From Bacteroidota bacterium (GTDB taxonomy: Bacteria > Bacteroidota > Ignavibacteria > Kapaibacteriales > UBA2268): a stretch of DNA of 64,000 nt. Within the stretch, counting starts at the first letter, position 1. Every line of letters begins with the position of its first letter. The stretch is from the NCBI GenBank assembly GCA_021780815.1, contig JAJXYC010000009.1:31157-95156 (forward strand), written 5' to 3'. This document shows, piece after piece, positions 4,390 to 49,287 of the stretch. The notes beneath the pieces are model-generated. The model did not search any database. It saw only the letters and a list, made by a program, of their open reading frames with translations, and had not been told where the DNA came from. The position numbers and the translations under genes are program-made.

Positions 4390-5433
4390 TTAATAAATTA
4401 ACAAGGCATCACCAAAAGCATAAAATCGATAGTTATTCTTTATAGCTTTTTTATAAGCCTTGAAGAGAAAGTCTCGTCCGGCAAAAGCTGATGATAAAAG
4501 AATTGAAGGTGTTTTTGGTAAATGAAAATTAGTTAATAAATAAGAAACTATTCTAAAATCATACGAAGGATAAATAAATTTATCAGTCCAGCCCCGACTT
4601 TGTTTAATTGCCTGAGTAGTCAAATAGGAACTTTCCAAAGCTCTGGCAACACTTGAGCCAACGGCAATGATTTTCTTTTTATTTTTTAAAGCTTTATTTA
4701 TAATTTCTGCATTCTCTTTTGTAATTTCATAAGGTTCAGTGTACATACGATGTTTAGTAAGGTCTTCAACTTCAATTTCATCAAAAATTGCTTGCCCGAT
4801 AGTAACATTAACACGTGCAAATTTTATACCTTTTTCTTCTAATTTTGTTACGAACTCTTGTGAAAAGTGTAAACCAGCTGATGGTGGTCCAATTGAAGAT
4901 AAATATTTATCATTCGCAAAAACTGTTTGATAATATTCTTTATCTTTTGTCTCTGGTTGACGATTTAAGTAAGGTGGAATTGGCATCATACCAATTTTTT
5001 CAATAACATTAAAAAGATTATCTTGGTAACTAAATCTAACTGTTCGACCACGATTTGTAGTATTATCTATAACTTCGCAATAAAATTTGTAATCATCAAA
5101 ATATATTTTATTTCCTATACGAACCTTCCTAGCAGGTTCAACCAAAACGTCCCACAATTTTTCTTCGGCATTTAATTGTCTCAGCAATAATACTTCTATT
5201 TCAGCGTCGGTTTTTTCTTTATGACCGATTAACTTTGCAGGAAATACTTTTGTTTCATTGACTACGATACAATCGCCTGGTTCCAACATATCACATAAAT
5301 GCCCTATTGTTTTTTCTCTAATATCGCCTGTTTTTCGGTTCATTACCATCATCCGGGCGGCTTCTTTGGGTTCAATAGGGTATTCTGCAATTAAGTTCTT
5401 TGGAACTTGGTAAACAAAATCAGATAATTTCAT
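4390..5433 (-). CDS. queA: S-adenosylmethionine:tRNA ribosyltransferase-isomerase
   Basis: 347 aa. N-terminus MKLSDFVYQVPKNLIAEYPIEP and overall length are typical of QueA. Confidence 0.88.
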   Translation of the reverse strand: MKLSDFVYQVPKNLIAEYPIEPKEAARMMVMNRKTGDIREKTIGHLCDMLEPGDCIVVNETKVFPAKLIGHKEKTDAEIEVLLLRQLNAEEKLWDVLVEPARKVRIGNKIYFDDYKFYCEVIDNTTNRGRTVRFSYQDNLFNVIEKIGMMPIPPYLNRQPETKDKEYYQTVFANDKYLSSIGPPSAGLHFSQEFVTKLEEKGIKFARVNVTIGQAIFDEIEVEDLTKHRMYTEPYEITKENAEIINKALKNKKKIIAVGSSVARALESSYLTTQAIKQSRGWTDKFIYPSYDFRIVSYLLTNFHLPKTPSILLSSAFAGRDFLFKAYKKAIKNNYRFYAFGDALLIY

Positions 5434-7122: not shown

Positions 7123-8265
7123 TTAATATGCAAGATTTAAAATTTCATAAAAATCAGATGTATCAAGTTTTATAATTCTACCTAACCGTCCATAATCTTG
7201 GACACATTTGATAATTTTACTAAAATCTGATTTATCAAAGCCAATTTCTTTTAAAGTAATGGGAGAACCCCATTCTTTAAATTTATCTTTCATTGCTTGT
7301 ACGCCGTCAAGGACGCTATTTGTATTCCAAACATTTTTAGCCCATCTTTCAAAAATAAATTCTTTGCTTTTGAAAACATAAGTAATCCAAGCAGGGAATA
7401 ATACGGATAATCCTTCGCCATGAGCAACGTTAGGATTAATTGCACTTAAAGCGTGTTCTAATCCATGTGTAGTCCATTCGCCTCCGCTCATAGAAACAGA
7501 TGTTACTCCATTTAAAGCAAGTGTAGAACACCAGGCAAAATTAGCTCTTGCATTATAATCATAAGGTTCGGAATGAAGTTTATCTATTTGTGAAATTATT
7601 GTCCTTTGGACAGATTCATTAACAGCTATGGTAACTTCGGCATCTATTCCCATAAAATAATTTTCCATCAAATGAGATAAAGAATCAACACCGCCGTTTG
7701 CTGTTTGTCTTTTTGGTAAACTCATTTGTACTGCTGGGTCAATAATTGTAACTTTTGGGAAGACCAAAGGACTACCAAATGACCATTTTTTTAATTCTTT
7801 TTCATTACTTAAAACAGCAAATGAATTCATTTCTGAGCCAGTTGCTGAAAGTGTGAGAATGACAAATAGAGGCAGTGCTTTTTGGGGAACTACTTTTTGT
7901 TCAAAAACATCCCAAATATTAGGTATGCCAACACTCACAGCAATTGATTTGGCTTCATCAATTACTGAACCACCTCCAACTGCTAATATTGCTTCCACTT
8001 TATTGTCTGCGGCGTATTTCTTTGCTAATAATGCGTGTTCTAATGTAGGGTTCGGACGAACATCCCAAAATTCAAATACTTCAATATTATGTTTAAATAA
8101 ACTATGTTGTACTTGCGAATAAACACCATTTGCCTTAATTGAACCGCTTCCAGCTAAAAGTAATATCCTCGAATAACCTGCTTTTTTTATCTCTTCTCCT
8201 ATATTCCCTATTGTATTTTTCCCGAATATTATTTTTGTTGGATTATGAAAAGTGAAATTATCCAT
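7123..8265 (-). CDS. Iron-containing alcohol dehydrogenase
   Basis: 380 aa. Fe-ADH family signature GGGSVIDEAK, NAD-binding N-terminal region and metal-binding His cluster (HGLEHALSA). Confidence 0.85.
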   Translation of the reverse strand: MDNFTFHNPTKIIFGKNTIGNIGEEIKKAGYSRILLLAGSGSIKANGVYSQVQHSLFKHNIEVFEFWDVRPNPTLEHALLAKKYAADNKVEAILAVGGGSVIDEAKSIAVSVGIPNIWDVFEQKVVPQKALPLFVILTLSATGSEMNSFAVLSNEKELKKWSFGSPLVFPKVTIIDPAVQMSLPKRQTANGGVDSLSHLMENYFMGIDAEVTIAVNESVQRTIISQIDKLHSEPYDYNARANFAWCSTLALNGVTSVSMSGGEWTTHGLEHALSAINPNVAHGEGLSVLFPAWITYVFKSKEFIFERWAKNVWNTNSVLDGVQAMKDKFKEWGSPITLKEIGFDKSDFSKIIKCVQDYGRLGRIIKLDTSDFYEILNLAY

Positions 8266-8361
8266 AGTTTGTTTATTTTTGTAATTAAAAAATATAAAAT
8301 TATTTAAAATTAGTAACTAAATTAAATTGTAAAACGTTTAAATGATATTAAAATTTATAAA

Positions 8362-9171
8362 ATGAAAAATAAACTTTTTAATATTAAAACAAATAAAACA
8401 AAAATAAAATTGAACAAAAAATTAAAAATTAAAAGCATAGTTATATTAGCAGTTTTATGTTCATTACAATTAGTTATTGTGAAGGATGTAACTGCTCAAA
8501 TATATAGTAATAAAAGCGATTTAACAAAATTAGATGGGAAAAATCAAGATACTTTAACCAACAATAAATTTGCTGATGAAGATGTAAAAACTTCGTCAGG
8601 AGCGGCAAGTAAATATAAAAGCTATCAAGATTCAATATTTCAACATTTTTTGAATATGAAAGTTACAGCACTAACATTATTTCATTTTAATTTATCATTA
8701 AGCGATGAAGAGTGGGCGGCAATAACGAAGAGTAATAGTGATTTGCCATATCAAGCGGCATTAAAAAGTTTAGCAGTTGTTCCACCTTCTGCTTTTATAC
8801 CATCAGGGCAAGAACAAGTGCTTTATGAATCAAATCTTGAAGCCGCTCAATATATCCCATTTGTTAGCCAACCAAAATATGGATTAAAAATCCCATTTCA
8901 CGATATAGGACAATTTTTAGGCTTAATAGAAGATACAAGTCCAGATATTTATTATTCAATTGATTCGCCAGAATATATACAAGTTGTTATTTATTCTTTG
9001 CAAGGAATAGTTATTGCAAAAATTTATGATGGTAAGCAAGCACCTGGAAATTATAAACTTACTTGGAATTTACGTGATGATAATGGTCGGAGAATGTCAT
9101 CTGGGGATTATATTGGTGAAGTCCGTATTGGGAATAGTAAATTTTTACGTAAAAGAATTGTTGTGCCTTAA
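8362..9171 (+). CDS. Secreted hypothetical protein with T9SS (Por) C-terminal sorting domain
   Basis: 269 aa with a basic N-terminus and hydrophobic signal region. The C-terminal approx 70 aa (VVIYSLQGIVIAKIYDG...GDYIGEVRIGNSKFLRKRIVV) fit the T9SS CTD pattern. Confidence 0.5.
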   Translation: MKNKLFNIKTNKTKIKLNKKLKIKSIVILAVLCSLQLVIVKDVTAQIYSNKSDLTKLDGKNQDTLTNNKFADEDVKTSSGAASKYKSYQDSIFQHFLNMKVTALTLFHFNLSLSDEEWAAITKSNSDLPYQAALKSLAVVPPSAFIPSGQEQVLYESNLEAAQYIPFVSQPKYGLKIPFHDIGQFLGLIEDTSPDIYYSIDSPEYIQVVIYSLQGIVIAKIYDGKQAPGNYKLTWNLRDDNGRRMSSGDYIGEVRIGNSKFLRKRIVVP

Positions 9172-9756: not shown

Positions 9757-10107
9757 ATGGTAAATATTGAAACTTTTGAAAACCAACATCCATATAGGGA
9801 TTACGAAATTATTCACGTTAATCCAGAGTTTACTTCACTTTGTCCAAAAACAGGATTACCTGACTTTGGGACTATTACTGTAAAATATATTCCAGATAAG
9901 CTTTGTCTTGAACTTAAAGCACTGAAATATTATTTTATGAATTATCGCAATCAAGGCATATTTTACGAAGATGTTACTAATAAAATTTTAAATGATTTGG
10001 TTGAAGTTTGCGAACCAAAATATATGGAAGTCAAAACAGAATGGACTACAAGAGGCGGTATGAATTCAATAATTACAGTTAAATTCGAAAAGGGAAAAGA
10101 TGATTAA
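9757..10107 (+). CDS. queF: NADPH-dependent 7-cyano-7-deazaguanine reductase
   Basis: 116 aa, unimodular QueF. EFTSLCPKTGLPDFG motif with the catalytic Cys, in a T-fold protein. Confidence 0.9.
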   Translation: MVNIETFENQHPYRDYEIIHVNPEFTSLCPKTGLPDFGTITVKYIPDKLCLELKALKYYFMNYRNQGIFYEDVTNKILNDLVEVCEPKYMEVKTEWTTRGGMNSIITVKFEKGKDD

Positions 10108-10525
10108 AATAGGTAAAGAATATCATTGGGAAATGAGCCATAGATTGCCTTTTTATGAAGGGCTATGTTGGAATATTCACGGGCATTCATATAAAATGAT
10201 ATTAGAACTTGAAGGAACACTCAATGAAAATGGTATGTTACTCGATTTTTATGAAATCGATAAAATCGCATTGCCTATTATAAAAGAATATGACCATAGT
10301 TTAATTGTAAATGATAAAGACAATAAAGTTATTGATTTTTTGAAAGAAAATAATTTTAGGCATAAAATTCTTGGATCAACATCTACAAGTGAGAATTTAG
10401 CTCAACATTTTTGTAATTTGTTTAAAGTAGAGTTTGCTAAACATCAAAATGTTAAAATAGTTAGAGTAAGGGTTTACGAAACACACGATGCTTACGCCGA
10501 AGTAACTACCAAATGCAATGAATAA
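10100..10525 (+). CDS. queD: 6-carboxy-5,6,7,8-tetrahydropterin synthase
   Basis: 141 aa PTPS-family protein. EMSHRLP...CxxxHGHSY zinc-binding motif. Overlaps queF by 8 nt. Confidence 0.88.
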   Translation: MIKIGKEYHWEMSHRLPFYEGLCWNIHGHSYKMILELEGTLNENGMLLDFYEIDKIALPIIKEYDHSLIVNDKDNKVIDFLKENNFRHKILGSTSTSENLAQHFCNLFKVEFAKHQNVKIVRVRVYETHDAYAEVTTKCNE

Positions 10526-10530
10526 AGAAA

Positions 10531-11673
10531 ATGAAAAATATGGGAAAAGTGATGGATAAACTTGGTAAATATGAATTGAATAGTGTTTATCAAGGTGATA
10601 GTTTAGAATTTATGAAGGATTTACCAAGTAATTCAATTGATCTAATTTTTGCAGACCCACCTTATAATTTACAATTACAAAATGAACTTTATAGACCTAA
10701 TCAAACAAAAGTTGATGCTGTAAACGATGATTGGGATAAATTTAGTTCAATTGACGAATATGATAAATTTACATATAAATGGCTAAAAGAATGTCATAGA
10801 ATATTAAAAGACACTGGTAGTATTTGGGTTATAGGAACATATCATAATATTTTTCGAGTAGGAAAAATCATTCAAGATATAGGATATTGGATATTAAACG
10901 ATATTGTATGGCTAAAAACAAATCCAATGCCAAATTTCAAAGGTACAAGATTTAATAATGCACACGAAACCTTGATATGGGCAACAAAATCCAAAAATTC
11001 GAACTATACATTTCATTACCATTCAATGAAAGTGATGAATGATGATTTGCAAATGAGAAGCGATTGGCTTATACCTATATGTCAAGGAGAAGAAAGAATC
11101 AAAGTGAACGGACAAAAGGCACATTCAACACAAAAACCTGAAGAGTTGTTGTATAGAGTAATTATTTCAACTTCGAATCCTGATGATATAGTATTCGATC
11201 CATTTTCAGGCAGCGGAACAACAGCGGCAGTTGCCAAAAGATTAGGTAGAAAATTTCTTGCTTTTGAAAAAGAATCGTTTTACGTTCAAGTTGGTAGCGA
11301 AAGAGTTGAAAAAATTAAACCAATAGAAAGTTCATTATTAGAATATAAAATTGAAAAAAAAAAGCCCAAAGTGCCATTTGGTAACTTAGTTGAAAAGGGC
11401 TACATACAAATTGGTGAAAATCTATTCTCAAAAGATGGTAAATATAAAGCACAAGTTCAAGCTGATGGTTCATTAGTGTATGGTGAAATCACAGGGTCTA
11501 TTCACAAGGTCAGTTCAACAATACTTAACAAAGAAAGCAATAACGGATGGACGTTTTGGTATGTGAAAAGGCAAGATGGTATGATCTGTATTGACGAATT
11601 ACGCTGTGATTATGAAATTAAGTTCTCAATGAGAAGCAACGATATTCACTCTAAAAGCTATGTTTATATGTGA
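10531..11673 (+). CDS. Beta-class N6-adenine (N4/N6) DNA methyltransferase, CcrM/M.HinfI-like, apparently orphan
   Basis: 380 aa. Motif IV first (IDLIFADPPYNL), then HSTQKPEEL, then motif I (FDPFSGSGTTAAVAKRLGRKFLAFE), which is the beta-class order. It also has the roughly 80-aa C-terminal extension characteristic of the CcrM family. No adjacent endonuclease ORF. Confidence 0.85.
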   Translation: MKNMGKVMDKLGKYELNSVYQGDSLEFMKDLPSNSIDLIFADPPYNLQLQNELYRPNQTKVDAVNDDWDKFSSIDEYDKFTYKWLKECHRILKDTGSIWVIGTYHNIFRVGKIIQDIGYWILNDIVWLKTNPMPNFKGTRFNNAHETLIWATKSKNSNYTFHYHSMKVMNDDLQMRSDWLIPICQGEERIKVNGQKAHSTQKPEELLYRVIISTSNPDDIVFDPFSGSGTTAAVAKRLGRKFLAFEKESFYVQVGSERVEKIKPIESSLLEYKIEKKKPKVPFGNLVEKGYIQIGENLFSKDGKYKAQVQADGSLVYGEITGSIHKVSSTILNKESNNGWTFWYVKRQDGMICIDELRCDYEIKFSMRSNDIHSKSYVYM

Positions 11674-11804
11674 AATAAAATATAAAACATTAGTTAAAGT
11701 AATAAATAAAAAATTAGAAAAAATAAATAAATAATTTTAAGAAAATAATATTTATGCTATAATAAACTTAAATTATTAATTTACAAAATACTTGGCATAA
11801 AAAA

Positions 11805-12734
11805 ATGAAAGTAAATCAAGATAAAATAGATAAAATCAATCAATTAAAAAAAGAGAAAAATGCTGTTATTCTTGCTCACTTTTATCAAGAAGGTGATATT
11901 CAAGATTTGGCAGATTATGTTGGCGATTCTCTTGCCTTAAGTCAAGTAGCTCAAAAAGTCGAAGCGGACGTAATTCTTTTTGCAGGTGTAAACTTTATGG
12001 CTGAAACTGCCAAAATTTTAAATCCTTCTAAAAAAGTAATCGTTCCAGATGTTAAAGCAGGTTGCTCGCTTGCGGATTCTGCGGGACCAAAAAGATTTAA
12101 AGAATGGCGAGAAAAATATCCCGATGCTGTTGTTGTTAGCTATATTAATACAACTGCGGAAATCAAAGCAATGTCCGATATTATTTGCACTTCTTCGAAT
12201 GCAGTAAAAATAGTTAATTCTATCCCTAATGATAAATTAGTGCTGTTTGCTCCCGATAAATTTTTAGGCTCATACGTCCGTCAAGCAACAGGTCGTGAAA
12301 TGGTGCTTTGGGATGGAACTTGTCAAGTTCATGAGTTTTTTTCAGAATCCAAAGTAATCGAATTAATGGAAGAATATCCCGATGCTGAGGTATTAGCACA
12401 TCCAGAATGTCCTCCCAGTATTTTAAAGTACGCGAATGTGATTGGTTCGACTACGAAAATTATACAAAGAGCGGTTGAAAGCACCGCAGACAAGTTTATT
12501 ATTTTAACCGAACCCGGTGTAATACATAAAATGAAAAAGCTTGCCCCTGAAAAAACATACATAGAAGTGCCAAATTTGAATGGGTGCAGCTGCAATGAAT
12601 GCCCATATATGCGATTGAACACCATTGACAAAATTATTCACTCTCTCGAAACTTTACAAACAGAAATATTGATTGATGAAGAAATTAGATTAAAAGCATT
12701 AAAACCAATTCAAAAAATGTTGGAGTTAAGTTGA
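11805..12734 (+). CDS. nadA: Quinolinate synthase A
   Basis: 309 aa, typical NadA (AHFYQEGDIQDLADYVGDSLALS, three-repeat architecture with Cys ligands). Confidence 0.9.
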   Translation: MKVNQDKIDKINQLKKEKNAVILAHFYQEGDIQDLADYVGDSLALSQVAQKVEADVILFAGVNFMAETAKILNPSKKVIVPDVKAGCSLADSAGPKRFKEWREKYPDAVVVSYINTTAEIKAMSDIICTSSNAVKIVNSIPNDKLVLFAPDKFLGSYVRQATGREMVLWDGTCQVHEFFSESKVIELMEEYPDAEVLAHPECPPSILKYANVIGSTTKIIQRAVESTADKFIILTEPGVIHKMKKLAPEKTYIEVPNLNGCSCNECPYMRLNTIDKIIHSLETLQTEILIDEEIRLKALKPIQKMLELS

Positions 12735-13597
12735 TAAATTATCCTCAATACAAAGATTTACCTGAAAATTACATAAAAAGCAAAATTCAGGAATTTTTAG
12801 AAGAAGATTGTCCCAACGGGGATATTACGACAGAATTAACAATTCATCAAGACGAAGTTGCCAAAGCGATTATTTCGACAGAAGAAGAGACTGTTTTTGT
12901 TGGTGAAAAAGTATTGCCATTTTTCTTTGACGAAAATTTTAATTTTAAGCTTTTCTTTAAAGATGGGGTAAAATTAAAAAGAGGGGCAATTATTGCCGAA
13001 GTAACTGGTAAGGCACAAGCAATACTAAAAATTGAGCGCACTTTATTGAATTTATTGCAAAGGATGTGTGGAATTGCTTCACAAGTTAGACAATTTACTG
13101 AACTTGCTGATAAGTTTAATGTTCGCATATTAGATACTCGCAAAACTGTACCAGGGTTGAGATTATTTGATAAATATGCAGTTGCTGCCGCAGGAGGTTA
13201 TAACCATAGATTAGATTTATCTTCGGGCATTCTAATTAAAGACAACCATTTGTCAAATAAGGATTTAAGATACTTGCTTATCAATATTAAAAATAAAAAT
13301 ACTTCTAATTTGCCGATTGAACTAGAAGTAGATAATTTTGAACAGTTGGCAATTGGATTAGAAATTGGTGTAGATGGCTTTTTATTAGATAATTTAAAAC
13401 CTGACAAAGTAAAAGATGCCGTGGCGCTTATTCGTAATTCTACTAATGGTAACAAAATTTTTATTGAAGCATCAGGCGGCATTAATCTTATCAATTTCGA
13501 AGCATATTTAAATACAGGAATTAATGCTATTTCAATAGGCTCTTTAACGCATTCCGTTAAATCTGCAAATATTCATATTGAATTCAAACATTTATGA
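12731..13597 (+). CDS. nadC: Nicotinate-nucleotide pyrophosphorylase (carboxylating) / quinolinate phosphoribosyltransferase
   Basis: 288 aa. The 4-nt ATGA overlap with nadA is the classic nadA-nadC coupling. QPRTase family pattern (TRKTVPGLRL, ILIKDNH). Confidence 0.9.
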   Translation: MINYPQYKDLPENYIKSKIQEFLEEDCPNGDITTELTIHQDEVAKAIISTEEETVFVGEKVLPFFFDENFNFKLFFKDGVKLKRGAIIAEVTGKAQAILKIERTLLNLLQRMCGIASQVRQFTELADKFNVRILDTRKTVPGLRLFDKYAVAAAGGYNHRLDLSSGILIKDNHLSNKDLRYLLINIKNKNTSNLPIELEVDNFEQLAIGLEIGVDGFLLDNLKPDKVKDAVALIRNSTNGNKIFIEASGGINLINFEAYLNTGINAISIGSLTHSVKSANIHIEFKHL

Positions 13598-14909: not shown

Positions 14910-17900
14910 ATGAAACGATTGTTTCGCCTAAGTATCCTAATGGTACTTCTGGGGGTTCTATCTTTTGGCACAATACTCGCTCAAAAGCAAGTTTTTGTAT
15001 CAGGAAGAATAGCTCCCGGAGACGTTCGGATATTTGTAAAAGACTCGGTTTACATAATTGATAGGGACTATGTAATTGGTGGTACCCTGATTATTGAACC
15101 AAGTACAACAGTGTATTTCTACCCAAATGGTAGAATCATAGACTCAACCGGCGGTAGAATTATCGCTGATGGTTATGCTTCATCAAGTTATACCGCAAAC
15201 CCAGGTGGATTAAACCCAATTGCACCAGGTTCGCCGTACGATGGATATTCTGATCCTGGTTATTTTCTTTATAATACAGGTTCAGTTAAAACAGTTAATG
15301 TTACTACTTCAAGAGATTTAACTGTTAACCCATCAAAATACAACTATTTATTTAATGTTGTATTTGATACTTTAAATAAGAAAATTATTGACCTTGCAGA
15401 TCCAACAGACCCATCTGGTGTTTATGGCAATTATCAAGGCAATAATAATCTTATAGTTATTAGCTTTGAGCAAGCAATTATGTGGCAAGCTGCAAGATTG
15501 CAATTTGCTCCAAGTGATGTAAATATTAAAATGAATCCTTGGCAAAGAATTAATCAAGGTCAAATTAATGTTCAAAATGGAGAAATTAAATTTATTGGTT
15601 CACCAGTTTCAAATTTCTCTCGTGAATGGGGACACTTTATAATTCTTCCAGGTGCTCGTGCTGCATTCTTTAGATATGCTTCTTTCAATGGATTTAGAAA
15701 AGATACTACAGTTGATAACAAAGGCTTATATAATGTTAATGCTTATCCTTGGGCCGCAACAGTTAATAAAGAGTTGAATCAATTAACAAATGGTGCTGGT
15801 GGTGCGATTACTACTTTTTCATCACGTACTTGGTTGATTGATGTAACATTCAAAAATAATATGGCTCGTTATCGTGGTGGTGCATTGCAAATTTTGCAAG
15901 CTCCAGAAGGTTTCCCTGTAGCTTCAACTACACTTGATTACTATCCACTTGATAAGAACCCAAATATTACAAATAAAGATTTATCTTTATCTTCAATCTT
16001 ATCAAAGAATCCAGTTCTAAGAACAGATAATATTGATGAAACAACAGCAGAACCATTATCTGATAATGATAGAATGGCTTATGATGATGGACGTTTAGCA
16101 TTGTATTTAGGACGTATTCGTGGATTAAAGATGGACCACAACTACGTTCAAATTGCAAATGTAGTTACAAAGAATATTGGTGGTGTAATGGTTGTTACTG
16201 ATGATGTTGACAACCCAGCTAATTACCCACAAAAATATGGTAACGGTGCTTTCGGTGGAGCAATATATATTGCTGGTCGTGATGAAAATCGTCAAATTGA
16301 AGTTGGCCTTGGTATTAATGATGCTATTAAAATTAACGGAACAACAGTTCAATTCCCTAAATACGATACATTTATAGCAACTATGAACTTTGCTGCAAAC
16401 TTCCAACAAGCAGGTAGTAGCGAAGGTGCTCGTGGTGGTGCATTATATATTGGCGACTATACATCAATGATAGTTGCTGGTGAATATTCACAAAATGAAA
16501 CATACACTAAATTTATGCAAGATGCTAATAATGGTAAAAATAGTGGTTACTACTCAATGGGTGGTGCTATCTTCTTAAGCCAAACACAAGGCAGATTGCA
16601 AATTCATGGTGGTCCTCGTCGTGCTGATTATAATAATAGTACATTATTCTATGATAATAGAGCAGGTGCTGGTGGAGCAATCTATGTTGATGGAAATGCT
16701 TTCCCGGATAAATCACCTATTATCGGTGGAACTGATTTACCTCTTGATGCTCGTAATTTTGGTTTCGGTATTAAATTTAATCAAAATAAAGCAGTTTCTT
16801 GGGGTGGTGCTATATTTACTAATCGTAATTTCTGGATTAATGGTTCTGGTGGAACTCAATCAGGCGCTTTAATCGGTTATGATGGAAACTATTCAGTTGT
16901 ATTTGATGGAAATACTGCCGGTTATGCAGGTGGTGCGATTCATGTTTCTATACCTGTTAGCGATATTACTCCATTAAGTCAAAGAACAGTTCAAATGTTT
17001 AGAACTCGCTTTTTAAATAATACAGTTGGCGAAGATATAACTGGCGATAACCGTTTAGAAGTTCGTGGTGGTGGTGCTATTTATGCTCTTAACGCTGAAC
17101 TCAACTTACTTAAAGGCGTTGAATTTAATGCTAACGCAGTTCGTAATGGTAATGGTGCCGCAATTGCATTCATTAACCCTACAAATGAAGTTAAAAGATA
17201 TTTCTTGTCAGATGTTGATGTTGCTAACTTAAATGAATCAACTGGTTTAGTTGATGGTTATACTTCAACAAATGATATCTTTACTTATAATACAAATATT
17301 CCTGCAACAGCATCTATGCTCACTCGCTTTATTGATAATAAAATATCTATTGATGATGATATTTTACAAAGTCAAAGCGGTAGCGGTGCAACTCAACTCT
17401 GGCAAGGTACTGCTCAAACAACTGAAAAATTGTTAGGTACTTATTGGATTAATCCAAGCAATGGAGTTGCTGTTGGCTATAATGGAATTATTGTTCGCTT
17501 TACTAATGGCGGTACAAATTGGTCATATCCATCTTCACCAACTTCATACAGATTAGAATCTGTTATTTTCACAAATGAAAGTACTGGTTTTGCTGTTGGT
17601 GACCGTGGAGTAATTTTAAAAACTGATGATGGTGGTTATAATTGGAGAATTATCGCTGGTGTACCAACTGATAAATGTATCCAAGATGTTAATTTTGTTG
17701 GTACAAACTATGGATTTGCTGTAACTGAAAATGGTCAAATATTAGTTTCAACAGATGCTGGTGAAACTTGGACATTAAAACACAATACATCAAATTCATT
17801 AAATGGTGTGTACTTCAAAACTAACTTAATCGGTTATGCAGTTGGACAAAATGGTGCTGTATTAAAAACAGTAGATGGTGGTTTAAACTGGGTTGTTGTT

Positions 17901-20900
17901 TCAATCCCTGGATTGCATGATGACTTAAATAAAGTAATCTTTATCAATAACTCAACTGGTTTTGCTGTTGGTAAAAATGGAACTTTGATTAAAACAGTAG
18001 ATGGTGGCGATACTTGGGATATTACTAATACAGGTACTCCATATACTTTACAATCTATTTCATTCTATGGCACAAGCGTAGGTTATATCGCTGCACAATA
18101 TGGTACAATATTAAAAACAACAGATGGTGGTGCAACTTGGAATGCTTTAACAAGTGGTACAAGCTATAGTGTTAATGATATTAATGTTGTAGATGCTAAT
18201 ACAATTTATGCAGTTGGCGATGTAGGAATGTTATTGAAAACAACAGATGCTGGTGCAACTTGGAACAATATGAAACCAGCAGATCAAAGTTACGTAGATG
18301 TTAAAAGATACCATCAAGAAATTAACTTCCCAGAAAATGGTGTAGGTCTTGGTGCTGGTATTTACATATTAGATAGATTAACTGATAAGTTTGTTCCTCG
18401 TCAGGATAGTATTATGTTTAACCGTGTTCGTTTTGAAGGAAACGAATCATACACAGGTTCTGCAATCTATTCAGATAATTATGATTTAAAACTTATCTTT
18501 AACCGTTCATTAATTACAGATAACACTGCATTATCAGAAGTTGGCAAAGCACAAAATTATATTACTGGTGCAGTATTCCAAGATGCCCAAAAGAATGTAA
18601 CTGGTAATTTTGCATCAAGTGATTTAGCAGGTGCTACAATTTATGGTGAGGTTCAAGGACCATTACCTTACTCAATTTTCTCAGAAGCTGCTAACTCAAT
18701 TTATGGTAACCAAGCACGTTTCTTAATTAGATTACCAGATGCTCCAAATACAAAAGGTATTTTGGCTGGTACAACTGGTATTGGATTTGGTGGAACAGAT
18801 ACATTACGTGGAAATTATTGGGGACATACCGAAGCTGATGTAAATTTAGCACTCTCCAATATGAAAATAAAATTCTACAATGAAAACACTGGTGAAACAC
18901 AAGAATATGATAATGTTGTAAATGAAACCTTCTTCATTGAAAAAGGCGATACTTCATATTTACCATATATATATCCAGCAACAAGTGACCCACGTAATCA
19001 AGGTCCATTTGAAATGTATGGTACAGTTATGAATGGAACAGTAGAACAAGTTAAGGAATTCGTTTATACACCGATACCTGCTAAAAATGGAGTTGATGAA
19101 AATACAACAGACGCAATGTCAATTCCAGAAAAATACTTGTTCTCAGGAAGAATATACGATATTTATGATAAAGGAACTGATATAAAAACAGCTGACTACA
19201 GCAAACGTAGATTAGTTCCAATTGAAGATTTTGCAGTTGGTATTCCACCAATCGTAAAAAGATATACAGACAACACAATGCCATCATACGGTAAATATAT
19301 CAAATTGTGGACACGTGACCCATATTATGTAGAAAGTGGTTCATATCCTCAATTATCTGCATTGCAAACTGAATTCCATGCAGATAAAGATGGTAATTAC
19401 TATCATCCAATAGGTTATCCATTATATATGGAAGCTAGTGTAGATTATAGTGGTGATGATAATACAGTAAATAATGATTATCATTTATTAAATCAAACAG
19501 TTTATTTTGTAATTAATGAAACAACTGGTGATTATATCCGTGTTCCATTAACACAAGTAAGCGAAGTTGCACCAAGTAACGAAGTATTTCGTGCAACAGT
19601 TGAATTAGTACCTGATTTATCAAGAAGAAATGCAAATCCATTAATTAGAAGAACTGCAGAAGGTTTAGCAAATTATGGAACAGGTCCATTCTTGTTAGAA
19701 AACTTGTTCCGCAATCCATATAAAGAAGATGCAGGTGCATTACAAGGACGTAAATATATTGCTGATTATCAACAATTTGGAACAGTTCCTGATTTGTTCA
19801 GCAATAGACTTGGTATGCCTCAATCTAATTTCTTAAATGGCATTTCAAATACAACATTCTTTGCAGGCGAAAAATATACTGCTCTTCCAGTAAATGTTGG
19901 CGATGTTGTAAGAATAATTTCACGTACTTCATTATGGAGAGATGGTGCAAATAAAGCTTATGAAGATGGTATTTCATTTGTAATTACAGGAAGCACAGAA
20001 CCTCCAGTATTTACGGGTAATATACCAACATTAGATAATGTAACACCAAAAGAATTTAAAGATAAAATCTTCGTATCAGAAGATAGATCATATCCTGCTG
20101 ATATTTCTGCTCCATACAGTCAATTAGATGATCCAACACGTCGTGGTCGTGATTCTATAATTACTATTACAGCAATTGATCCAAATCAATTATATGACCC
20201 ACGTTCTTGGGATAATAATAATTGGTCAAATCAATATCCACAAATTACTTATTCTTGGTCAGTAGATCAAAACTCAGCAGCTTATCGTTGGTTATTAGCA
20301 GATACAGTTAAATCAAGCAGTGATATGACTTGGGGAGCAAGAGGATATATCCATTTACATGGACAACCTCTGAATCCTTATGTAGTTCCTGGTGGTGATT
20401 CTGTTACAGTTGGAGCTGCAAACTATCCTCCAAACTTTAGAACACTTGATTCATTGAAGGCTGTTGGTGCACCACAAGATGTTATCGATAGATTTATTGA
20501 AACATTCCCATCATATTACAGTTCACCTGTTTATGATGTAGCTAATGCAAGATTCCTACAACAAGATACAATTGATTTTGGAAAGAGTTATACACGCTTC
20601 CAAGGCTTCCGTATATTTGTAGTTGATAGTGTTCCTAGATTTATTGACCCAGGTACACCACAAACAGAGTTGGGTCCAGTAAAAGTTATTACAAATCTTG
20701 ATACACGTCAAACAGAAGATAAATACTATACTCCATCTGTTTATACTTGTAAGACAACTGCTGATGGTAGATTGATTGCAAACTTAACGGACAAATTGAG
20801 ATTCCAAATAGATTTAAATACTGATGACGAAAATGAAGATAGCTGGGCTACAAAGTGGAATTGGACTTATGGTCGTACAGCTTATGGCTTTGCAAATACT

Positions 20901-22880
20901 TCCATTAGACCAGTTGAAAGAGACACCTCTGTAATTGATACAACATATTATAGTGGCGATGAATTCGGTCAAGGTGGTCCAGGTAATGTTATTATACAAA
21001 CTAAACCAGCATGGATGAACTATAATAATATGTATTTCTATGGATCAGATACAGAGAAAGATACTTACGGTTCAGACTTTACTACATTTGGAAGATTAAA
21101 TATAAGAATCCCGAGAAATCAAGTTATGCCTTATTTAATTCCACAAAATCAAACTAATATGTCCTTAAATACAGATACAACATTTGTAATTGCTTGTAAT
21201 GACGGACATGGTGGAGTAACAAATAAGAGATTAGATTTGTTTATTAACGTTCAACCACAAATAACAACAACTTCGTTGCAAGATGCAACAGAAGGAACAG
21301 ATTATAATCCACAATTACTTGATTCGACAAAGAGAATTATGATTTATGATCCAAACTTTGGACAAAAACATAAATATTCATTAGTATATGTTGATGATAG
21401 TAGAGCAACAATTGCAATTGATGATTGTTTCTCGGATGCAGGTTCATTTGATTTAACAAACTTAAAAACTACACCAAAATGGTTAAAAATTGACAAAGAA
21501 ACTGGTTTGTTATACGGAACTCCAGGAGTAAAAGATTCACCAGCAAATATATTAGTAACTGTTGTTGTTGAAGATGAAAATGGATTACGTGATTTGAAAC
21601 AAATACCAATGAAAGTCAATTCAATTAATCATAATCCATATATCGCAGGTGTTCCACCTGTAAGATGTATTGATTACGGTAAAGAATATCAAGATTACGT
21701 AAAAATCATTGATCCAGATTTAATGAGAAATAATTCAACAGAAACTATTACACTAACATTGACAGATGGACGTGATAATCCAATTACATCAGACTTGTTA
21801 ACTATCGATCCACAAGTTATTACTGGTGACGGCGTAAATGATACAGTTCAAGTAAAATTGTCAACATCGAAATTTGCACTTAATCCAGAAAAAGATGGTA
21901 AAATTACAATTCATATAATTGCAACTGACAAAGCAGGAAAATCAGATACATTGACATACAGATTACAAATTTCACAAGAAACTGACTTTGTATGTAATAT
22001 CAATGTAACAAATGCACGTGGAGCAACACAAGTACTTCAATTCGGTACATCATCACAACCAAATGCAAAAGGTGGTGTAACAACAGGTGATGGAACAGAT
22101 AGCCCAGATTTCTTAGGTTATTTAGACTATGACTTATGTGAATTTGAATTACCACCATTGCCACCACTTGATGTATTTGATGCTCGTTGGTTAATACCAT
22201 TAAGAAACGGAACACTACGTAATATCTATCCAGTTGCTACTGGTACAACTCCAAGACAAGAAATCTACAAAGCTAGATTCCAAGCTGGTGGAGAAAATGG
22301 TGGAACATCAACATTGTACCCAGTAACAATTAGTTGGAAACCAAGTGAAGTTCCAACAGTGGATAATACACAAGCTAATCCAACCGGTTCAGTATGGTAC
22401 ATCAGAGACTTCTCATCTAATGGAAATATATTCAGTTTTGAAATGACACAACCAGATAAGAAGTTCAAGAAAACAGCTGATATCGTTAGTGGATTTAGTT
22501 CACAAGACCCAACATTGTTCCAAATTATTATCAATAATCCATCACTTAACTCATTTATCATTCTTCATGACTGGTTAAATAGTGTAGATGGAAATCAAAC
22601 AATCGTTAGTGGAATAAATTCAGTTAATCCTAATCCAGTATCAAATAACTCAGTTATTACTTATGGAGTTGATAAACCTGCACAAGTGAAATTAGATGTT
22701 GTTGATAATTTAGGAAACATTGTAATGACATTAGATGATTCGTACAAAACAGTGGGAACTTACACATTGAACTGGAATGGTATTGACCAAAGTGGTAGAG
22801 CATTACCATCAGGTGCATATACTATTAGAATGTTAGTTGGTAATGAAACATCAACTTACCCAGTAGTTGTAGTTCGCTAA
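14910..22880 (+). CDS. Giant secreted cell-surface protein: right-handed beta-helix repeats plus Ycf48-like/BNR beta-propeller and T9SS C-terminal domain
   Basis: 2656 aa with a signal peptide. Recurring GGAIY/GGALY beta-helix motifs. At residues approx 840-1100, tandem GxxGxILKTxDGGxTW repeats typical of BNR/Ycf48-like propellers. C-terminus (NPVSNNSVITYGV...GAYTIRMLVGNETSTYPVVVVR) fits the T9SS CTD. Confidence 0.7.
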   Translation: MKRLFRLSILMVLLGVLSFGTILAQKQVFVSGRIAPGDVRIFVKDSVYIIDRDYVIGGTLIIEPSTTVYFYPNGRIIDSTGGRIIADGYASSSYTANPGGLNPIAPGSPYDGYSDPGYFLYNTGSVKTVNVTTSRDLTVNPSKYNYLFNVVFDTLNKKIIDLADPTDPSGVYGNYQGNNNLIVISFEQAIMWQAARLQFAPSDVNIKMNPWQRINQGQINVQNGEIKFIGSPVSNFSREWGHFIILPGARAAFFRYASFNGFRKDTTVDNKGLYNVNAYPWAATVNKELNQLTNGAGGAITTFSSRTWLIDVTFKNNMARYRGGALQILQAPEGFPVASTTLDYYPLDKNPNITNKDLSLSSILSKNPVLRTDNIDETTAEPLSDNDRMAYDDGRLALYLGRIRGLKMDHNYVQIANVVTKNIGGVMVVTDDVDNPANYPQKYGNGAFGGAIYIAGRDENRQIEVGLGINDAIKINGTTVQFPKYDTFIATMNFAANFQQAGSSEGARGGALYIGDYTSMIVAGEYSQNETYTKFMQDANNGKNSGYYSMGGAIFLSQTQGRLQIHGGPRRADYNNSTLFYDNRAGAGGAIYVDGNAFPDKSPIIGGTDLPLDARNFGFGIKFNQNKAVSWGGAIFTNRNFWINGSGGTQSGALIGYDGNYSVVFDGNTAGYAGGAIHVSIPVSDITPLSQRTVQMFRTRFLNNTVGEDITGDNRLEVRGGGAIYALNAELNLLKGVEFNANAVRNGNGAAIAFINPTNEVKRYFLSDVDVANLNESTGLVDGYTSTNDIFTYNTNIPATASMLTRFIDNKISIDDDILQSQSGSGATQLWQGTAQTTEKLLGTYWINPSNGVAVGYNGIIVRFTNGGTNWSYPSSPTSYRLESVIFTNESTGFAVGDRGVILKTDDGGYNWRIIAGVPTDKCIQDVNFVGTNYGFAVTENGQILVSTDAGETWTLKHNTSNSLNGVYFKTNLIGYAVGQNGAVLKTVDGGLNWVVVSIPGLHDDLNKVIFINNSTGFAVGKNGTLIKTVDGGDTWDITNTGTPYTLQSISFYGTSVGYIAAQYGTILKTTDGGATWNALTSGTSYSVNDINVVDANTIYAVGDVGMLLKTTDAGATWNNMKPADQSYVDVKRYHQEINFPENGVGLGAGIYILDRLTDKFVPRQDSIMFNRVRFEGNESYTGSAIYSDNYDLKLIFNRSLITDNTALSEVGKAQNYITGAVFQDAQKNVTGNFASSDLAGATIYGEVQGPLPYSIFSEAANSIYGNQARFLIRLPDAPNTKGILAGTTGIGFGGTDTLRGNYWGHTEADVNLALSNMKIKFYNENTGETQEYDNVVNETFFIEKGDTSYLPYIYPATSDPRNQGPFEMYGTVMNGTVEQVKEFVYTPIPAKNGVDENTTDAMSIPEKYLFSGRIYDIYDKGTDIKTADYSKRRLVPIEDFAVGIPPIVKRYTDNTMPSYGKYIKLWTRDPYYVESGSYPQLSALQTEFHADKDGNYYHPIGYPLYMEASVDYSGDDNTVNNDYHLLNQTVYFVINETTGDYIRVPLTQVSEVAPSNEVFRATVELVPDLSRRNANPLIRRTAEGLANYGTGPFLLENLFRNPYKEDAGALQGRKYIADYQQFGTVPDLFSNRLGMPQSNFLNGISNTTFFAGEKYTALPVNVGDVVRIISRTSLWRDGANKAYEDGISFVITGSTEPPVFTGNIPTLDNVTPKEFKDKIFVSEDRSYPADISAPYSQLDDPTRRGRDSIITITAIDPNQLYDPRSWDNNNWSNQYPQITYSWSVDQNSAAYRWLLADTVKSSSDMTWGARGYIHLHGQPLNPYVVPGGDSVTVGAANYPPNFRTLDSLKAVGAPQDVIDRFIETFPSYYSSPVYDVANARFLQQDTIDFGKSYTRFQGFRIFVVDSVPRFIDPGTPQTELGPVKVITNLDTRQTEDKYYTPSVYTCKTTADGRLIANLTDKLRFQIDLNTDDENEDSWATKWNWTYGRTAYGFANTSIRPVERDTSVIDTTYYSGDEFGQGGPGNVIIQTKPAWMNYNNMYFYGSDTEKDTYGSDFTTFGRLNIRIPRNQVMPYLIPQNQTNMSLNTDTTFVIACNDGHGGVTNKRLDLFINVQPQITTTSLQDATEGTDYNPQLLDSTKRIMIYDPNFGQKHKYSLVYVDDSRATIAIDDCFSDAGSFDLTNLKTTPKWLKIDKETGLLYGTPGVKDSPANILVTVVVEDENGLRDLKQIPMKVNSINHNPYIAGVPPVRCIDYGKEYQDYVKIIDPDLMRNNSTETITLTLTDGRDNPITSDLLTIDPQVITGDGVNDTVQVKLSTSKFALNPEKDGKITIHIIATDKAGKSDTLTYRLQISQETDFVCNINVTNARGATQVLQFGTSSQPNAKGGVTTGDGTDSPDFLGYLDYDLCEFELPPLPPLDVFDARWLIPLRNGTLRNIYPVATGTTPRQEIYKARFQAGGENGGTSTLYPVTISWKPSEVPTVDNTQANPTGSVWYIRDFSSNGNIFSFEMTQPDKKFKKTADIVSGFSSQDPTLFQIIINNPSLNSFIILHDWLNSVDGNQTIVSGINSVNPNPVSNNSVITYGVDKPAQVKLDVVDNLGNIVMTLDDSYKTVGTYTLNWNGIDQSGRALPSGAYTIRMLVGNETSTYPVVVVR

Positions 22881-22893
22881 TCTTCATAAATTT

Positions 22894-22920
22894 GGGTTGC
22901 TCTTATAAAAAGAGCAACCC
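22894..22920. other. Stem-loop immediately after the giant ORF (GGGTTGCTCTT-ATAAAA-AAGAGCAACCC)
   Basis: Perfect 11-bp inverted repeat seen directly. No downstream T-tract on either strand, so it is not a canonical intrinsic terminator. Confidence 0.3.
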
Positions 22921-22968
22921 AAAGTGAAGAATAATAGGAATATTATAATTAAAATAAAGGAGTTAAAT

Positions 22969-24903: not shown

Positions 24904-24917
24904 AAAAGTTCATTGAA

Positions 24918-26090: not shown

Positions 26091-26112
26091 TAAACAAAAT
26101 AAGGAGTTTGTA

Positions 26113-29292: not shown

Positions 29293-29311
29293 AAATGTAG
29301 TGATACGTTTA

Positions 29312-29348
29312 AATGGGTAGTAGGTATTCCTGCTACCCATTCTTTTTT
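29312..29348 (+). terminator. Rho-independent terminator
   Basis: AATGGGTAGTAGG-TATT-CCTGCTACCCATT 13-bp stem with one G:U pair, followed by TCTTTTTT. Confidence 0.6.
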
Positions 29349-29365
29349 AAGTAGAAAGTAAAAAA

Positions 29366-30172: not shown

Positions 30173-30185
30173 AATATACAATTAA

Positions 30186-31193: not shown

Positions 31194-31199
31194 TTTCTT

Positions 31200-47842: not shown

Positions 47843-47997
47843 AAAATAGCTGAATGGTGAAATTGATTTGTTGAAAATTGTGGAATCAAATAAATAAAGA
47901 AGCATAAATATTAAGTTTGGTTATTGGTTAAATAAAATCAAAAGGACCTAAAAATTATTGTCTAATATTCGACAATAATAAAAACAACTCCGAATTT

Positions 47998-48024
47998 AAT
48001 AAAGAATGCTTCTTTATTTTATTT
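47998..48024 (+). terminator. Weak AT-rich hairpin plus T-run downstream of flagellin 1
   Basis: AATAAAGAA-TGC-TTCTTTATT 9-bp stem with only one GC pair, followed by TTATTTATTT. A second hairpin TTATTGTC-N8-GACAATAA lies at 47955..47978. Confidence 0.3.
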
Positions 48025-48129
48025 ATTTATAAATAAGTTGTAAATAAGTTTATTAGTTCGGTATGATTTTTGATAAATATTATAGTTGCAAGAAAGTTGG
48101 ATTTGTTCTTTGAAAATTTAAGATAAAAC

Positions 48130-48157
48130 TAAAGTTTATAAACCATACTGCCGATAA
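48130..48157 (+). promoter_or_regulatory. Sigma-28 (FliA)-type promoter for flagellin copy 2
   Basis: TAAAGTTT-N12-GCCGATAA. Both boxes match consensus exactly. Located about 78 nt upstream of the ATG. Confidence 0.6.
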
Positions 48158-48234
48158 TTTAATATATACAGGAATATATAAAAATAGATGGCACGGAAGC
48201 CGATGTTTAAAGTAAAATAAAAGCGGAGGCAAGT

Positions 48235-49173: not shown

Positions 49174-49287
49174 TATCAATTAGAATAATATTAGTTGAAA
49201 TAATATTAAATTTGGAGTTGTTATTAAATTTTACATTTAGCCCAATTCCAAATTTGAACAAGAAAATGTAATTTATTATGGTAAAAT

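What the first reader, a model, noticed from the sequence alone, without database searches (positions are those of the whole stretch)
10531..11673. CcrM/M.HinfI-like beta-class adenine methyltransferase with no partner endonuclease, embedded among queuosine and NAD biosynthesis genes
The motif order (DPPY, then HxTQKP, then FDPFxGSGTT) and the approx 80-aa C-terminal extension match the CcrM family, which methylates GANTC and is cell-cycle regulatory in Alphaproteobacteria. Here it is a solitary gene in an FCB-group-like chromosome, directly after queF-queD and before nadA-nadC, with tight spacing suggesting co-transcription. An orphan CcrM-like MTase outside Alphaproteobacteria could indicate epigenetic regulation or an anti-restriction remnant. 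Its adjacency to deazapurine biosynthesis genes is curious, although queF and queD look like ordinary tRNA-queuosine enzymes and no dpdA/tgt-like DNA-modification gene is present.
Basis: partly seen in the sequence, partly recalled or inferred. Interest (0 to 1): 0.5.

Follow-up and report, generated by a model that had tools for sequence, protein, structure and literature searches.

The report
Methylase left over from restriction system
This gene is an intact DNA adenine methylase of the CcrM/M.HinfI family, but it is the surviving half of a horizontally acquired restriction-modification cassette whose endonuclease gene was deleted, not a CcrM-like regulator – a tidy but ordinary case.

Summary
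The ORF (10531-11673, +, 380 aa) is real. It is a beta-class N6-adenine methyltransferase with the CcrM-type C-terminal (RAMA) segment. It is 56% identical to Caulobacter CcrM, and all 20 checked catalytic, base-contact and strand-separation residues are conserved.

It is not a CcrM orthologue. In a tree of 82 homologues it falls in a multi-phylum clade whose members mostly sit beside an HpyAIV/HinfI-family endonuclease. It does not fall in the alphaproteobacterial clade, which has an RNase HII neighbour and no endonuclease.

Two close relatives (L081, L083) have the same queF-queD-MTase-nadA-nadC synteny with that endonuclease gene between the MTase and nadA. The window lacks about 0.9 kb there but keeps a 54-nt fossil of the endonuclease 3' end (11681-11734). 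Nine other relatives have empty queD-nadA sites, including the window's closest backbone relative (L084). The MTase lies inside a ~2.9-kb recombination tract.

No other homologue locus has que or nad neighbours, so the deazapurine adjacency is coincidental. GANTC is not notably depleted (O/E 0.91).

Verdict: a recently orphaned type II R-M methylase in a Kapaibacteriota-like chromosome. It is probably still active on GANTC-type sites. Low novelty.

The parts
10531..11673 (+). Solitary beta-class N6-adenine DNA methyltransferase of the M.HinfI/M.HpyAIV/CcrM family. The conserved start is probably Met8 at 10552.
   Evidence: ORF. Pfam N6_N4_Mtase plus RAMA. PDB 6pbd at E 2e-136. 20 of 20 CcrM functional residues conserved. 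92-94% identical to the endonuclease-paired sister protein P0002.
10636..11292 (+). Catalytic methyltransferase domain (residues 36-254), containing DPPY (42-45), loop-45 (N135, F136, R140) and FDPFSGSGTT (222-231).
11341..11619 (+). CcrM-type C-terminal DNA-binding segment (RAMA domain, residues 271-363), with S323, H325, N338, W340 and R358 conserved.
   Evidence: Role of these residues taken from PMC7672430.
11626..11680 (+). Deletion junction: about 55 bp that do not align to the intact cassette. It encodes the novel 15-residue tail SMRSNDIHSKSYVYM and the present stop codon (11671-11673).
   Evidence: Alignments to L081 and L083. No significant match inside the deleted segment.
11681..11734 (+). 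Fossil of the 3' end of the deleted HpyAIV/HinfI-family restriction endonuclease gene. It reads YKTLVKVINKKLEKINK*.
   Evidence: 92% identical over 51-52 bp to the endonuclease 3' ends of L081 and L083 (E about 1e-15), and absent from nine empty-site loci. The IYKTLxxxL motif is the conserved C-terminus of the endonuclease family.
11735..11804 (+). Spacer upstream of nadA, shared with the cassette-bearing relatives L081 and L083 but not with the empty sites.
9800..12700 (.). About 2.9-kb tract (most of queF, queD, the MTase, and nadA) in which the window departs from its otherwise 93-98% identical relative L084. This is a recombinational replacement carrying the cassette. The boundaries are approximate.
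   Evidence: Sliding identity is 0.92-0.97 outside the tract and 0.6-0.88 inside, with sharp edges.
9757..10525 (+). queF (preQ1 synthase, TIGR03139) and queD. These are flanking housekeeping genes and not functionally linked to the methylase.
   Evidence: The adjacency is absent from 80 homologue loci. queD abuts nadA directly in empty-site relatives.
11805..13597 (+). nadA and nadC, flanking housekeeping genes.

Best explanation
The gene encodes an intact and probably active m6A DNA methyltransferase of the M.HinfI/M.HpyAIV branch of the CcrM family. By inference it methylates the adenine of GANTC-type sites using the CcrM-style strand-separation mechanism.

It arrived as the M half of a two-gene type II restriction-modification cassette (M followed by an overlapping HpyAIV/HinfI-family endonuclease). 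That cassette sits between queD and nadA in some members of a Kapaibacteriota-like group and is exchanged with its flanks by homologous recombination.

In the window's lineage a ~0.9-kb deletion removed the last codons of the methylase's non-conserved tail and about 93% of the endonuclease gene. That left a solitary methylase, a new 15-residue tail and a 54-nt endonuclease fossil.

Shown here: the family, the synteny, the three allelic states, the fossil, the intact catalytic and recognition residues, and purifying selection. Inferred: the enzyme is still expressed (5 nt after queD, so probably read through from queF-queD), it still methylates, and its main present-day effect is passive. That effect would be keeping the genome and exported DNA protected from relatives' GANTC endonucleases and from re-invading cassettes, rather than CcrM-style regulation.
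For: Family: Pfam N6_N4_Mtase plus RAMA. 6pbd CcrM matches at E 2e-136. 20 of 20 functional residues are conserved (residue list from PMC13092597 and PMC7672430).

R-M clade: in the NJ tree the window and L081 sit among endonuclease-adjacent homologues from many phyla, separate from the alphaproteobacterial clade with its RNase HII neighbour.

Partner: the +1 gene in at least 24 loci is NCBIfam NF045832, the HpyAIV family type II restriction enzyme (249-254 bits against a cut-off of 160).

Same locus with the endonuclease: L081 (MTase 92-94% identical) and L083.

Deletion and fossil.

Empty sites: L084 and L166-L173.

Mosaic tract.

Not an assembly artefact: the allele with the novel tail is on 4-5 contigs from NCBI, Logan and ENA.

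Selection: dN/dS is 0.047, with 5 window-derived against 4 L081-derived amino-acid changes, all conservative.

No close endonuclease copy from any NCBI genome: the next best after the Logan sisters is 64% identical.
Against: Only 64 kb of the genome was visible. An unlinked endonuclease of another family cannot be excluded. No methylome or expression data are available, so activity and specificity are inferred. CcrM Gly39-Gly40 is Gln-Asn here, a position that correlates with central-base tolerance in PMC8919816, so the site could be narrower than GANTC. The 55-bp junction sequence is unexplained. It is unresolved whether the deletion happened in this lineage or an M-only allele was imported. 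It is also unresolved which of the window and L084 is the recombinant. The age of the deletion cannot be estimated, so an intact ORF may reflect either recency or selection.
Confidence: 0.85

Rival explanations
1. A bona fide CcrM-like orphan: a persistent, lineage-conserved solitary methylase used for epigenetic or cell-cycle regulation outside Alphaproteobacteria.
For: The CcrM architecture and recognition residues are complete. The gene is solitary in the window. The ORF is intact and under purifying selection.
Against: The score is below the NCBIfam CcrM equivalog cut-off. The protein is outside the CcrM clade and lacks its RNase HII synteny. Sister alleles have a cognate endonuclease, and a fossil of it remains here. 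The gene is absent from the nearest backbone relative and from eight other relatives. GANTC O/E is 0.91, ranking 10th of 16 comparable palindromes, and GANTC is sparser in intergenic than in coding DNA. There is no GANTC between 9356 and 11095, upstream of the gene. M.HinfI shares the C-terminal segment and the mechanism, so these features do not distinguish CcrM (PMC7672430).
Confidence: 0.05
2. Still a working R-M system, with the endonuclease encoded elsewhere in the genome (in trans).
For: Only 64 kb was examined. Separated R and M genes do exist (PMC4176335).
Against: The cognate gene was demonstrably deleted in situ. No homologue of either endonuclease family is in the window. No endonuclease more than 64% identical to the sister's comes from any NCBI-sourced genome in a database of 5.8 billion proteins, although the window's own assembly is in that database.
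Confidence: 0.05
3. A decaying, already inactive pseudogene-in-waiting.
For: The endonuclease partner is gone, so selection for self-protection is relaxed. The C-terminal tail has been rewritten.
Against: The reading frame is full length. 20 of 20 functional residues are conserved. There is no excess of substitutions on the window branch, and all five are conservative. The altered tail lies beyond the region homologous to CcrM.
Confidence: 0.05
4. Functionally linked to 7-deazapurine (queuosine/preQ) genes, for example as part of a DNA-modification island.
For: The gene starts 5 nt after queF-queD.
Against: None of 80 homologue loci has que or nad neighbours. In cassette-free relatives queD directly precedes nadA. 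queF matches the tRNA-type equivalog, and queA lies 5 kb away. No tgt/dpdA-like gene was found among the scanned ORFs.
Confidence: 0.01

Closest known systems
M.HinfI (Haemophilus influenzae) and M.HpyAIV (Helicobacter pylori): GANTC methylases of type II R-M systems
   Same: They share the beta-class motif order and the CcrM-type ~80-residue C-terminal segment. M.HinfI has been shown to use strand separation (PMC7672430). The sister alleles of the window gene are paired with an endonuclease that passes the NCBIfam HpyAIV-family equivalog. That HpyAIV and HinfI cut GANTC is from my own knowledge and from PMC8919816 (HinfI).
   Different: In the window the endonuclease has been deleted, so the methylase is solitary. 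The host is a Kapaibacteriota-like FCB-group bacterium. No direct sequence comparison with M.HinfI or M.HpyAIV themselves was possible here.
CcrM (Caulobacter crescentus, PDB 6pbd)
   Same: 56% identity over 345 residues with the same domain architecture. All 20 checked catalytic, base-contact, strand-separation and C-terminal residues are identical.
   Different: The protein sits in a different clade. It has no RNase HII synteny and is not persistent among close relatives. It scores below the equivalog cut-off. Gly39-Gly40 is replaced by Gln-Asn. There is no CcrM-like GANTC depletion or intergenic bias.
Solitary methyltransferases formed by in situ decay of R-M systems (the concept reviewed in PMC4176335)
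   Same: The endonuclease was lost first and the methylase retained. Loss of the methylase while a functional endonuclease remains may be lethal (PMC4176335).
   Different: PMC4176335 argues that this route is the minority and that families rarely contain both solitary and complete versions. Here all three states (empty, complete, and M-only with a fossil) are caught at one locus.

Membership tests
CcrM (cell-cycle-regulated orphan GANTC methylase; NCBIfam NF050803) | Beta-class motif order (DPPY before FxGxG) plus the ~83-residue C-terminal DNA-binding segment | tested here: met
   The feature is also present in M.HinfI (PMC7672430), so it is not discriminating.
CcrM (cell-cycle-regulated orphan GANTC methylase; NCBIfam NF050803) | Residues that contact G, A, T and C of GANTC and hold the strands apart (D31-Y34, L42, R44, W109, N124, F125, R129, R179, K187, K193; S315, H317, N330, W332, R350) | tested here: met
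   20 of 20 are identical. However, Gly39-Gly40 of the central-base pocket is Gln-Asn.
CcrM (cell-cycle-regulated orphan GANTC methylase; NCBIfam NF050803) | Score at or above the curated equivalog cut-off | tested here: not met
   563.5 bits against a cut-off of 830.
CcrM (cell-cycle-regulated orphan GANTC methylase; NCBIfam NF050803) | Phylogenetic placement with alphaproteobacterial CcrM and its conserved RNase HII neighbourhood | tested here: not met
   The NJ tree and neighbour clustering place it in the endonuclease-associated clade. The tree is a simple distance tree without support values.
CcrM (cell-cycle-regulated orphan GANTC methylase; NCBIfam NF050803) | Persistent solitary gene with no cognate endonuclease in the lineage | tested here: not met
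   The endonuclease is present in L081 and L083, a fossil remains in the window, and the gene is absent from L084 and L166-L173.
CcrM (cell-cycle-regulated orphan GANTC methylase; NCBIfam NF050803) | Genome-wide GANTC under-representation with relative intergenic enrichment | tested here: not met
   O/E is 0.91 (Markov-3) or 0.76 (dinucleotide shuffles). Density is 1.08 per kb in intergenic DNA against 2.16 per kb in coding DNA. The sample is only 64 kb.
CcrM (cell-cycle-regulated orphan GANTC methylase; NCBIfam NF050803) | Cell-cycle-restricted expression and proteolysis (CtrA/GcrA/Lon circuitry) | not testable with these tools
   This needs expression data and the full genome.
Type II R-M methylase of the HinfI/HpyAIV (GANTC) type | Adjacent cognate endonuclease of the HpyAIV/HinfI family | tested here: not met
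   It is absent from the window. It is present at the identical locus in L081 and L083, and a 54-nt fossil remains in the window. The gene is therefore a former member, now solitary.
Type II R-M methylase of the HinfI/HpyAIV (GANTC) type | Clusters with endonuclease-linked methylases rather than with persistent orphans | tested here: met
Type II R-M methylase of the HinfI/HpyAIV (GANTC) type | m6A at GANTC in vivo or in vitro | not testable with these tools
   This needs a methylome or a HinfI/TfiI protection assay.
Dpd-type 7-deazaguanine DNA-modification island | DpdA/TGT-like DNA transglycosylase and conserved linkage of the methylase to preQ0 genes | tested here: not met
   No such gene was found among the scanned ORFs, and there is no que linkage in 80 homologue loci.

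The most novel reading that the evidence does not exclude
The methylase is being retained by selection after loss of its endonuclease. That would make it an early stage of domestication of an R-M methylase into a host epigenetic or anti-restriction function in Kapaibacteriota, the kind of step that could have produced CcrM itself (my speculation). Independent solitary relatives in conserved synteny in five Flavobacterium genomes hint that this transition recurs in the FCB group.
Probability: 0.1. Interest if true: 0.45.

Novelty: new member of a known kind. Interest (0 to 1): 0.2.

Why it matters
Mainly as a correction. Strong similarity to CcrM, including its C-terminal domain and every recognition residue, does not make a gene a CcrM-type regulator, because the same architecture is carried by mobile R-M methylases across many bacterial and archaeal phyla.

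Secondarily, the locus is an unusually clean natural series: empty site, complete R-M, and M-only with an endonuclease fossil, all inside a recombination tract. It documents in situ decay of an R-M system into a solitary methylase, a route that large surveys (PMC4176335) considered uncommon. It also illustrates cassette movement by flanking homology rather than by a mobile element.

Tried and rejected
1. A look-up of P0001 by exact sequence found nothing. The 380-aa form did work.

2. Pfam hmmscan of the partner endonucleases gave no family, although precomputed tables label them PF09520 'HinfI'. I relied on the NCBIfam HpyAIV equivalog instead.

3. The apparent GANTC depletion against dinucleotide shuffles (131 against 172) shrank to O/E 0.91 under a third-order Markov model and is unremarkable among 16 comparable palindromes. 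I rejected it as evidence for restriction avoidance or for regulation.

4. The promoter and terminator scans were at chance level, so nothing can be said about transcription beyond gene spacing.

5. I tried to read central-base specificity from CcrM positions 39-40. The residue does not track partner type, and the published D49G mutant did not switch specificity (PMC8919816), so this is inconclusive.

6. I looked for the origin of the 55-bp junction inside the deleted segment and found no significant match.

7. The direction of the recombination event (window or L084 as recipient) could not be resolved from identity patterns.

8. Structure prediction was not run. 56% identity to a solved structure made it unnecessary.

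Full report
**Observation.** DPPY is at residue 42, HSTQKP at 198 and FDPFSGSGTT at 222, which is the beta-class order. Pfam finds N6_N4_Mtase over residues 36-254 (8e-66) and the RAMA domain over 271-363 (7e-18). The protein aligns over residues 16-360 with the solved Caulobacter CcrM structure 6pbd (E 2e-136, 56% identity). The neighbours are an rfaE-domain-II adenylyltransferase, queF (TIGR03139), queD, then the methylase, then nadA and nadC. The conserved part of the protein begins at Met8 (10552), the start used by another gene caller (P0001).

**Is it functional, and what would it recognise?** The CcrM literature gives a residue checklist:
- D31-P-P-Y34 for catalysis
- L42 and R44 in loop-2B, with R44 reading the G
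- W109 and R129, which read the T
- N124, which stacks on the C
- F125, the strand-separating pin
- R179, K187 and K193
- E280 and G305, two conserved C-terminal residues
- S315, H317, N330, W332 and R350 in the C-terminal segment, which hold the non-target strand

These come from PMC13092597 and PMC7672430. All 20 are identical in the window protein. The one noteworthy difference is the central-base pocket, where CcrM Gly39-Gly40 is Gln50-Asn51 here and in the sister protein. PMC8919816 reports that Gly40 correlates with GANTC as opposed to GAWTC specificity, although a point mutant did not switch specificity. Residue 40 does not track the type of endonuclease partner in my set. I therefore call the site "GANTC-type, central base unverified". 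PMC7672430 also shows that M.HinfI, an R-M methylase, has the same C-terminal segment and strand-separation behaviour. None of these features separates CcrM from an R-M methylase.

**Which branch of the family?** NCBIfam's CcrM equivalog scores 563.5 bits, well under its cut-off of 830. A genome-collection scan returned 80 loci with homologues at 54-78% identity. They come from Bacteroidota, Ignavibacteria, Cloacimonadota, Patescibacteria, DPANN and Thermoplasmata archaea, Chloroflexi and Alphaproteobacteria.

Clustering the three genes on either side of the methylase showed two conserved neighbours. One is a ~286-aa gene immediately downstream in at least 24 non-alphaproteobacterial loci. The other is RNase HII immediately upstream in the alphaproteobacterial loci. 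A second ~215-aa downstream family occurs in 7 loci.

The ~286-aa family passes the NCBIfam equivalog "HpyAIV family type II restriction enzyme" (249-254 bits against a cut-off of 160). In a neighbour-joining tree, Caulobacter CcrM groups with the RNase HII-linked alphaproteobacterial sequences. The window protein lies in the other clade, which is multi-phylum and mostly endonuclease-linked.

**The decisive comparison.** The closest non-identical protein is P0002 (94% by BLAST, 92% in a global alignment). It lies on contig L081 with the same gene order as the window: Fe-ADH, FlgD_ig protein, rfaE, queF, queD, methylase, nadA, nadC. The difference is a 293-aa HpyAIV/HinfI-family endonuclease gene overlapping the methylase's 3' end and preceding nadA. 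A third contig, L083, shows methylase 3' end, endonuclease, nadA, nadC and TPR in that order.

Where L081 has 958 bp, the window has 82 bp. Finer alignment shows that homology to the intact cassette ends near 11625 and resumes at 11681. The ~55 bp in between align to nothing in the deleted segment. They encode a new 15-residue tail and the present stop codon.

From 11681 to 11734 the window reads YKTLVKVINKKLEKINK*. This is the C-terminus of the endonuclease: L081 has ...EIYKTLAKVINKKLETINKKF* and L083 has ...EIYKTLAKVIDKKLDKINK*.

**Control for the fossil.** The 54-nt stretch matches only the endonuclease 3' ends of L081 and L083 (92% over 51-52 bp, E about 1e-15). It is absent from every cassette-free site. 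The IYKTLxxxL motif is the conserved C-terminus of this endonuclease family across phyla. It is therefore coding-sequence debris and not ancestral spacer.

The deletion allele is not an assembly artefact. The identical protein, including the novel tail, is recorded on 4-5 contigs from NCBI, Logan and ENA, the longest 148 kb. The window's own assembly, GCA_027401335.1, shows the same layout.

**The cassette is accessory.** Searching for the chromosomal locus through nadA found L084. Its rfaE2, nadC, TPR gene and giant gene are 93-98% identical in nucleotides to the window, but queD is followed after 232 bp directly by nadA. Eight further contigs (L166-L173) are 94-100% identical to L081 in the flanks and also have an empty queD-nadA site. 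One of them is an NCBI MAG labelled Candidatus Kapaibacteriota. So two related species each contain cassette-bearing and cassette-free genomes.

Identity between the window and L084 is 0.92-0.97 up to about 9800. It falls to 0.6-0.88 across queF, queD and nadA, then returns to 0.97 at about 12700. This is a ~2.9-kb replacement tract with the methylase in the middle. Within it the methylase and nadA are closest to the L081/L083 population: the methylase is 93% identical to L081 in nucleotides with dS 0.37 (a 176-bp 3' fragment is 97.7% identical to L083), against dS of 0.8 to above 2 for the flanking genes. I read this as cassette movement by recombination in flanking homology. Which of the window and L084 is the recipient, and whether the M-only allele arose before or after transfer, is unresolved.

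**State of the survivor.** Against L081, dN/dS is 0.047. Polarising the differences with 80 outgroups gives 5 window-derived changes, all conservative (V/I, L/I, F/L, V/I, M/L), against 4 L081-derived changes. There is no sign of decay, but the age of the deletion is unknown.

No endonuclease of either partner family is detectable in the 64-kb window. In a search of 5.8 billion proteins, no endonuclease more than 64% identical to L081's comes from an NCBI genome, although the window's assembly is in that collection.

**Tests of the regulatory reading.** GANTC occurs 131 times. Dinucleotide shuffles expect 172 ± 12, but a third-order Markov model expects 144 (O/E 0.91). That ranks GANTC 10th of 16 XYNY'X' palindromes. 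CTNAG and CCNGG are far more depleted. Density is 1.08 per kb in intergenic DNA against 2.16 per kb in coding DNA, and two of the seven intergenic sites lie inside the tRNA-Arg gene. No GANTC lies between 9356 and 11095, that is, upstream of or at the start of the gene. For comparison, Alphaproteobacteria with methylated GANTC show more than two-fold depletion (PMC8919816).

**The deazapurine angle.** None of the 80 homologue loci has queF, queD, nadA or nadC within 8 kb. queD abuts nadA in cassette-free relatives. queF matches the tRNA-pathway equivalog and queA lies at 4390-5433. The remaining ORFs I scanned are housekeeping, T9SS-tailed or flagellar genes with no tgt/dpdA-like protein. The adjacency simply reflects where the cassette landed.

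**Comparison with what is known.** The gene works like M.HinfI, M.HpyAIV and CcrM, but it fails the tests that define CcrM proper: equivalog score, clade, synteny and persistence. It is best filed as a former type II R-M methylase, now solitary. PMC4176335 discusses solitary methylases arising by loss of the endonuclease. That paper notes that losing M while R is still functional may be lethal, which explains the order of loss, but it argues that in situ decay is the minority route and that families rarely contain both solitary and complete versions. This locus is a clear example of that minority route.

**Verdict.** The gene is a new member of a known kind, with low interest (0.2). The most novel reading still open is incipient domestication of the orphaned methylase, with a probability of about 0.1.

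Noticed in passing
window 9800-12700, compared with L084: There is a sharp-edged ~2.9-kb tract of low identity (0.6-0.88) inside an otherwise 93-98% identical backbone. Within it, nadA and the methylase are closer to a different species group (L081, L083, L166-L173). This suggests the R-M cassette is exchanged between species by homologous recombination of its flanks. The direction of transfer is unresolved.
   Followed up: partly
window 10531-11598, compared with L081 8012-9059: Synonymous divergence of the methylase gene is dS 0.37. The flanking genes are much more diverged: nadA 0.80, queF 1.14, rfaE2 1.28 and nadC 2.37. Identity rises from 0.83 at the gene's 5' end to 0.98 at its 3' end.
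   Followed up: partly
L022, L023, L026, L028, L029 (Flavobacterium spp.), methylase at about 8001-9083: Five Flavobacterium genomes carry a solitary homologue (69-71% identical) in conserved synteny, with the same neighbours on both sides and no endonuclease within the available flanks. This looks like a persistent, possibly domesticated orphan, and it is a better candidate than the window gene for a CcrM-like role outside Alphaproteobacteria.
   Followed up: no
L042, L045, L054 (split endonuclease ORFs); L025 and L015 (64-65-aa remnants): Other members of the family also show broken or vestigial HpyAIV-family endonuclease genes next to an intact methylase. Endonuclease-first decay seems to recur in this family.
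   Followed up: partly
L013, L017, L018, L019, L021, L030, L031, gene immediately downstream of the methylase: A second partner family of about 215 aa replaces the HpyAIV-type endonuclease beside the same methylase family. It has a weak HSDR_N_2 (PD-(D/E)xK-like) match in one member and no NCBIfam match. It may be an uncharacterised GANTC-type endonuclease family.
   Followed up: no
L049, L052, L053, L055 (Thermoplasmata, Cuniculiplasma): These archaeal homologues have no endonuclease of either family within about 8 kb, whereas DPANN and other archaeal homologues do. They may be solitary archaeal versions.
   Followed up: no
window 52465-55830 (-): A 1121-aa protein whose only Pfam match is a DUF559 (Vsr-like endonuclease fold) domain at residues 824-924. 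It lies 41 kb from the methylase and its function is unknown.
   Followed up: no
window 14910-31940 (+): A giant 2656-aa protein is followed by three proteins with T9SS C-terminal sorting domains (Por_Secre_tail) and a glycosyltransferase. The giant gene is conserved at 84-98% nt identity in the relatives.
   Followed up: no
window 46904-52024 (+): A flagellar cluster holds two tandem flagellin genes (46904-47842 and 48235-49173) plus FliS, FliD and FlaG. Flagella together with T9SS substrates fit Kapaibacteriota/Ignavibacteria-like bacteria rather than Bacteroidota proper.
   Followed up: no
L081 9196-10077; L005 9160-10101: Precomputed tables label these endonucleases PF09520 ('HinfI'), but a direct hmmscan against the session's Pfam-A copy finds no family even at E <= 1. 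This is a database-version discrepancy.
   Followed up: partly
L164, L165 (IMG/VR contigs): Only two viral-collection contigs carry a close homologue (72-77% identical), and both also have the HpyAIV-family endonuclease next door (a partial match in L164). The family does not look like a typical phage-borne solitary anti-restriction methylase.
   Followed up: partly
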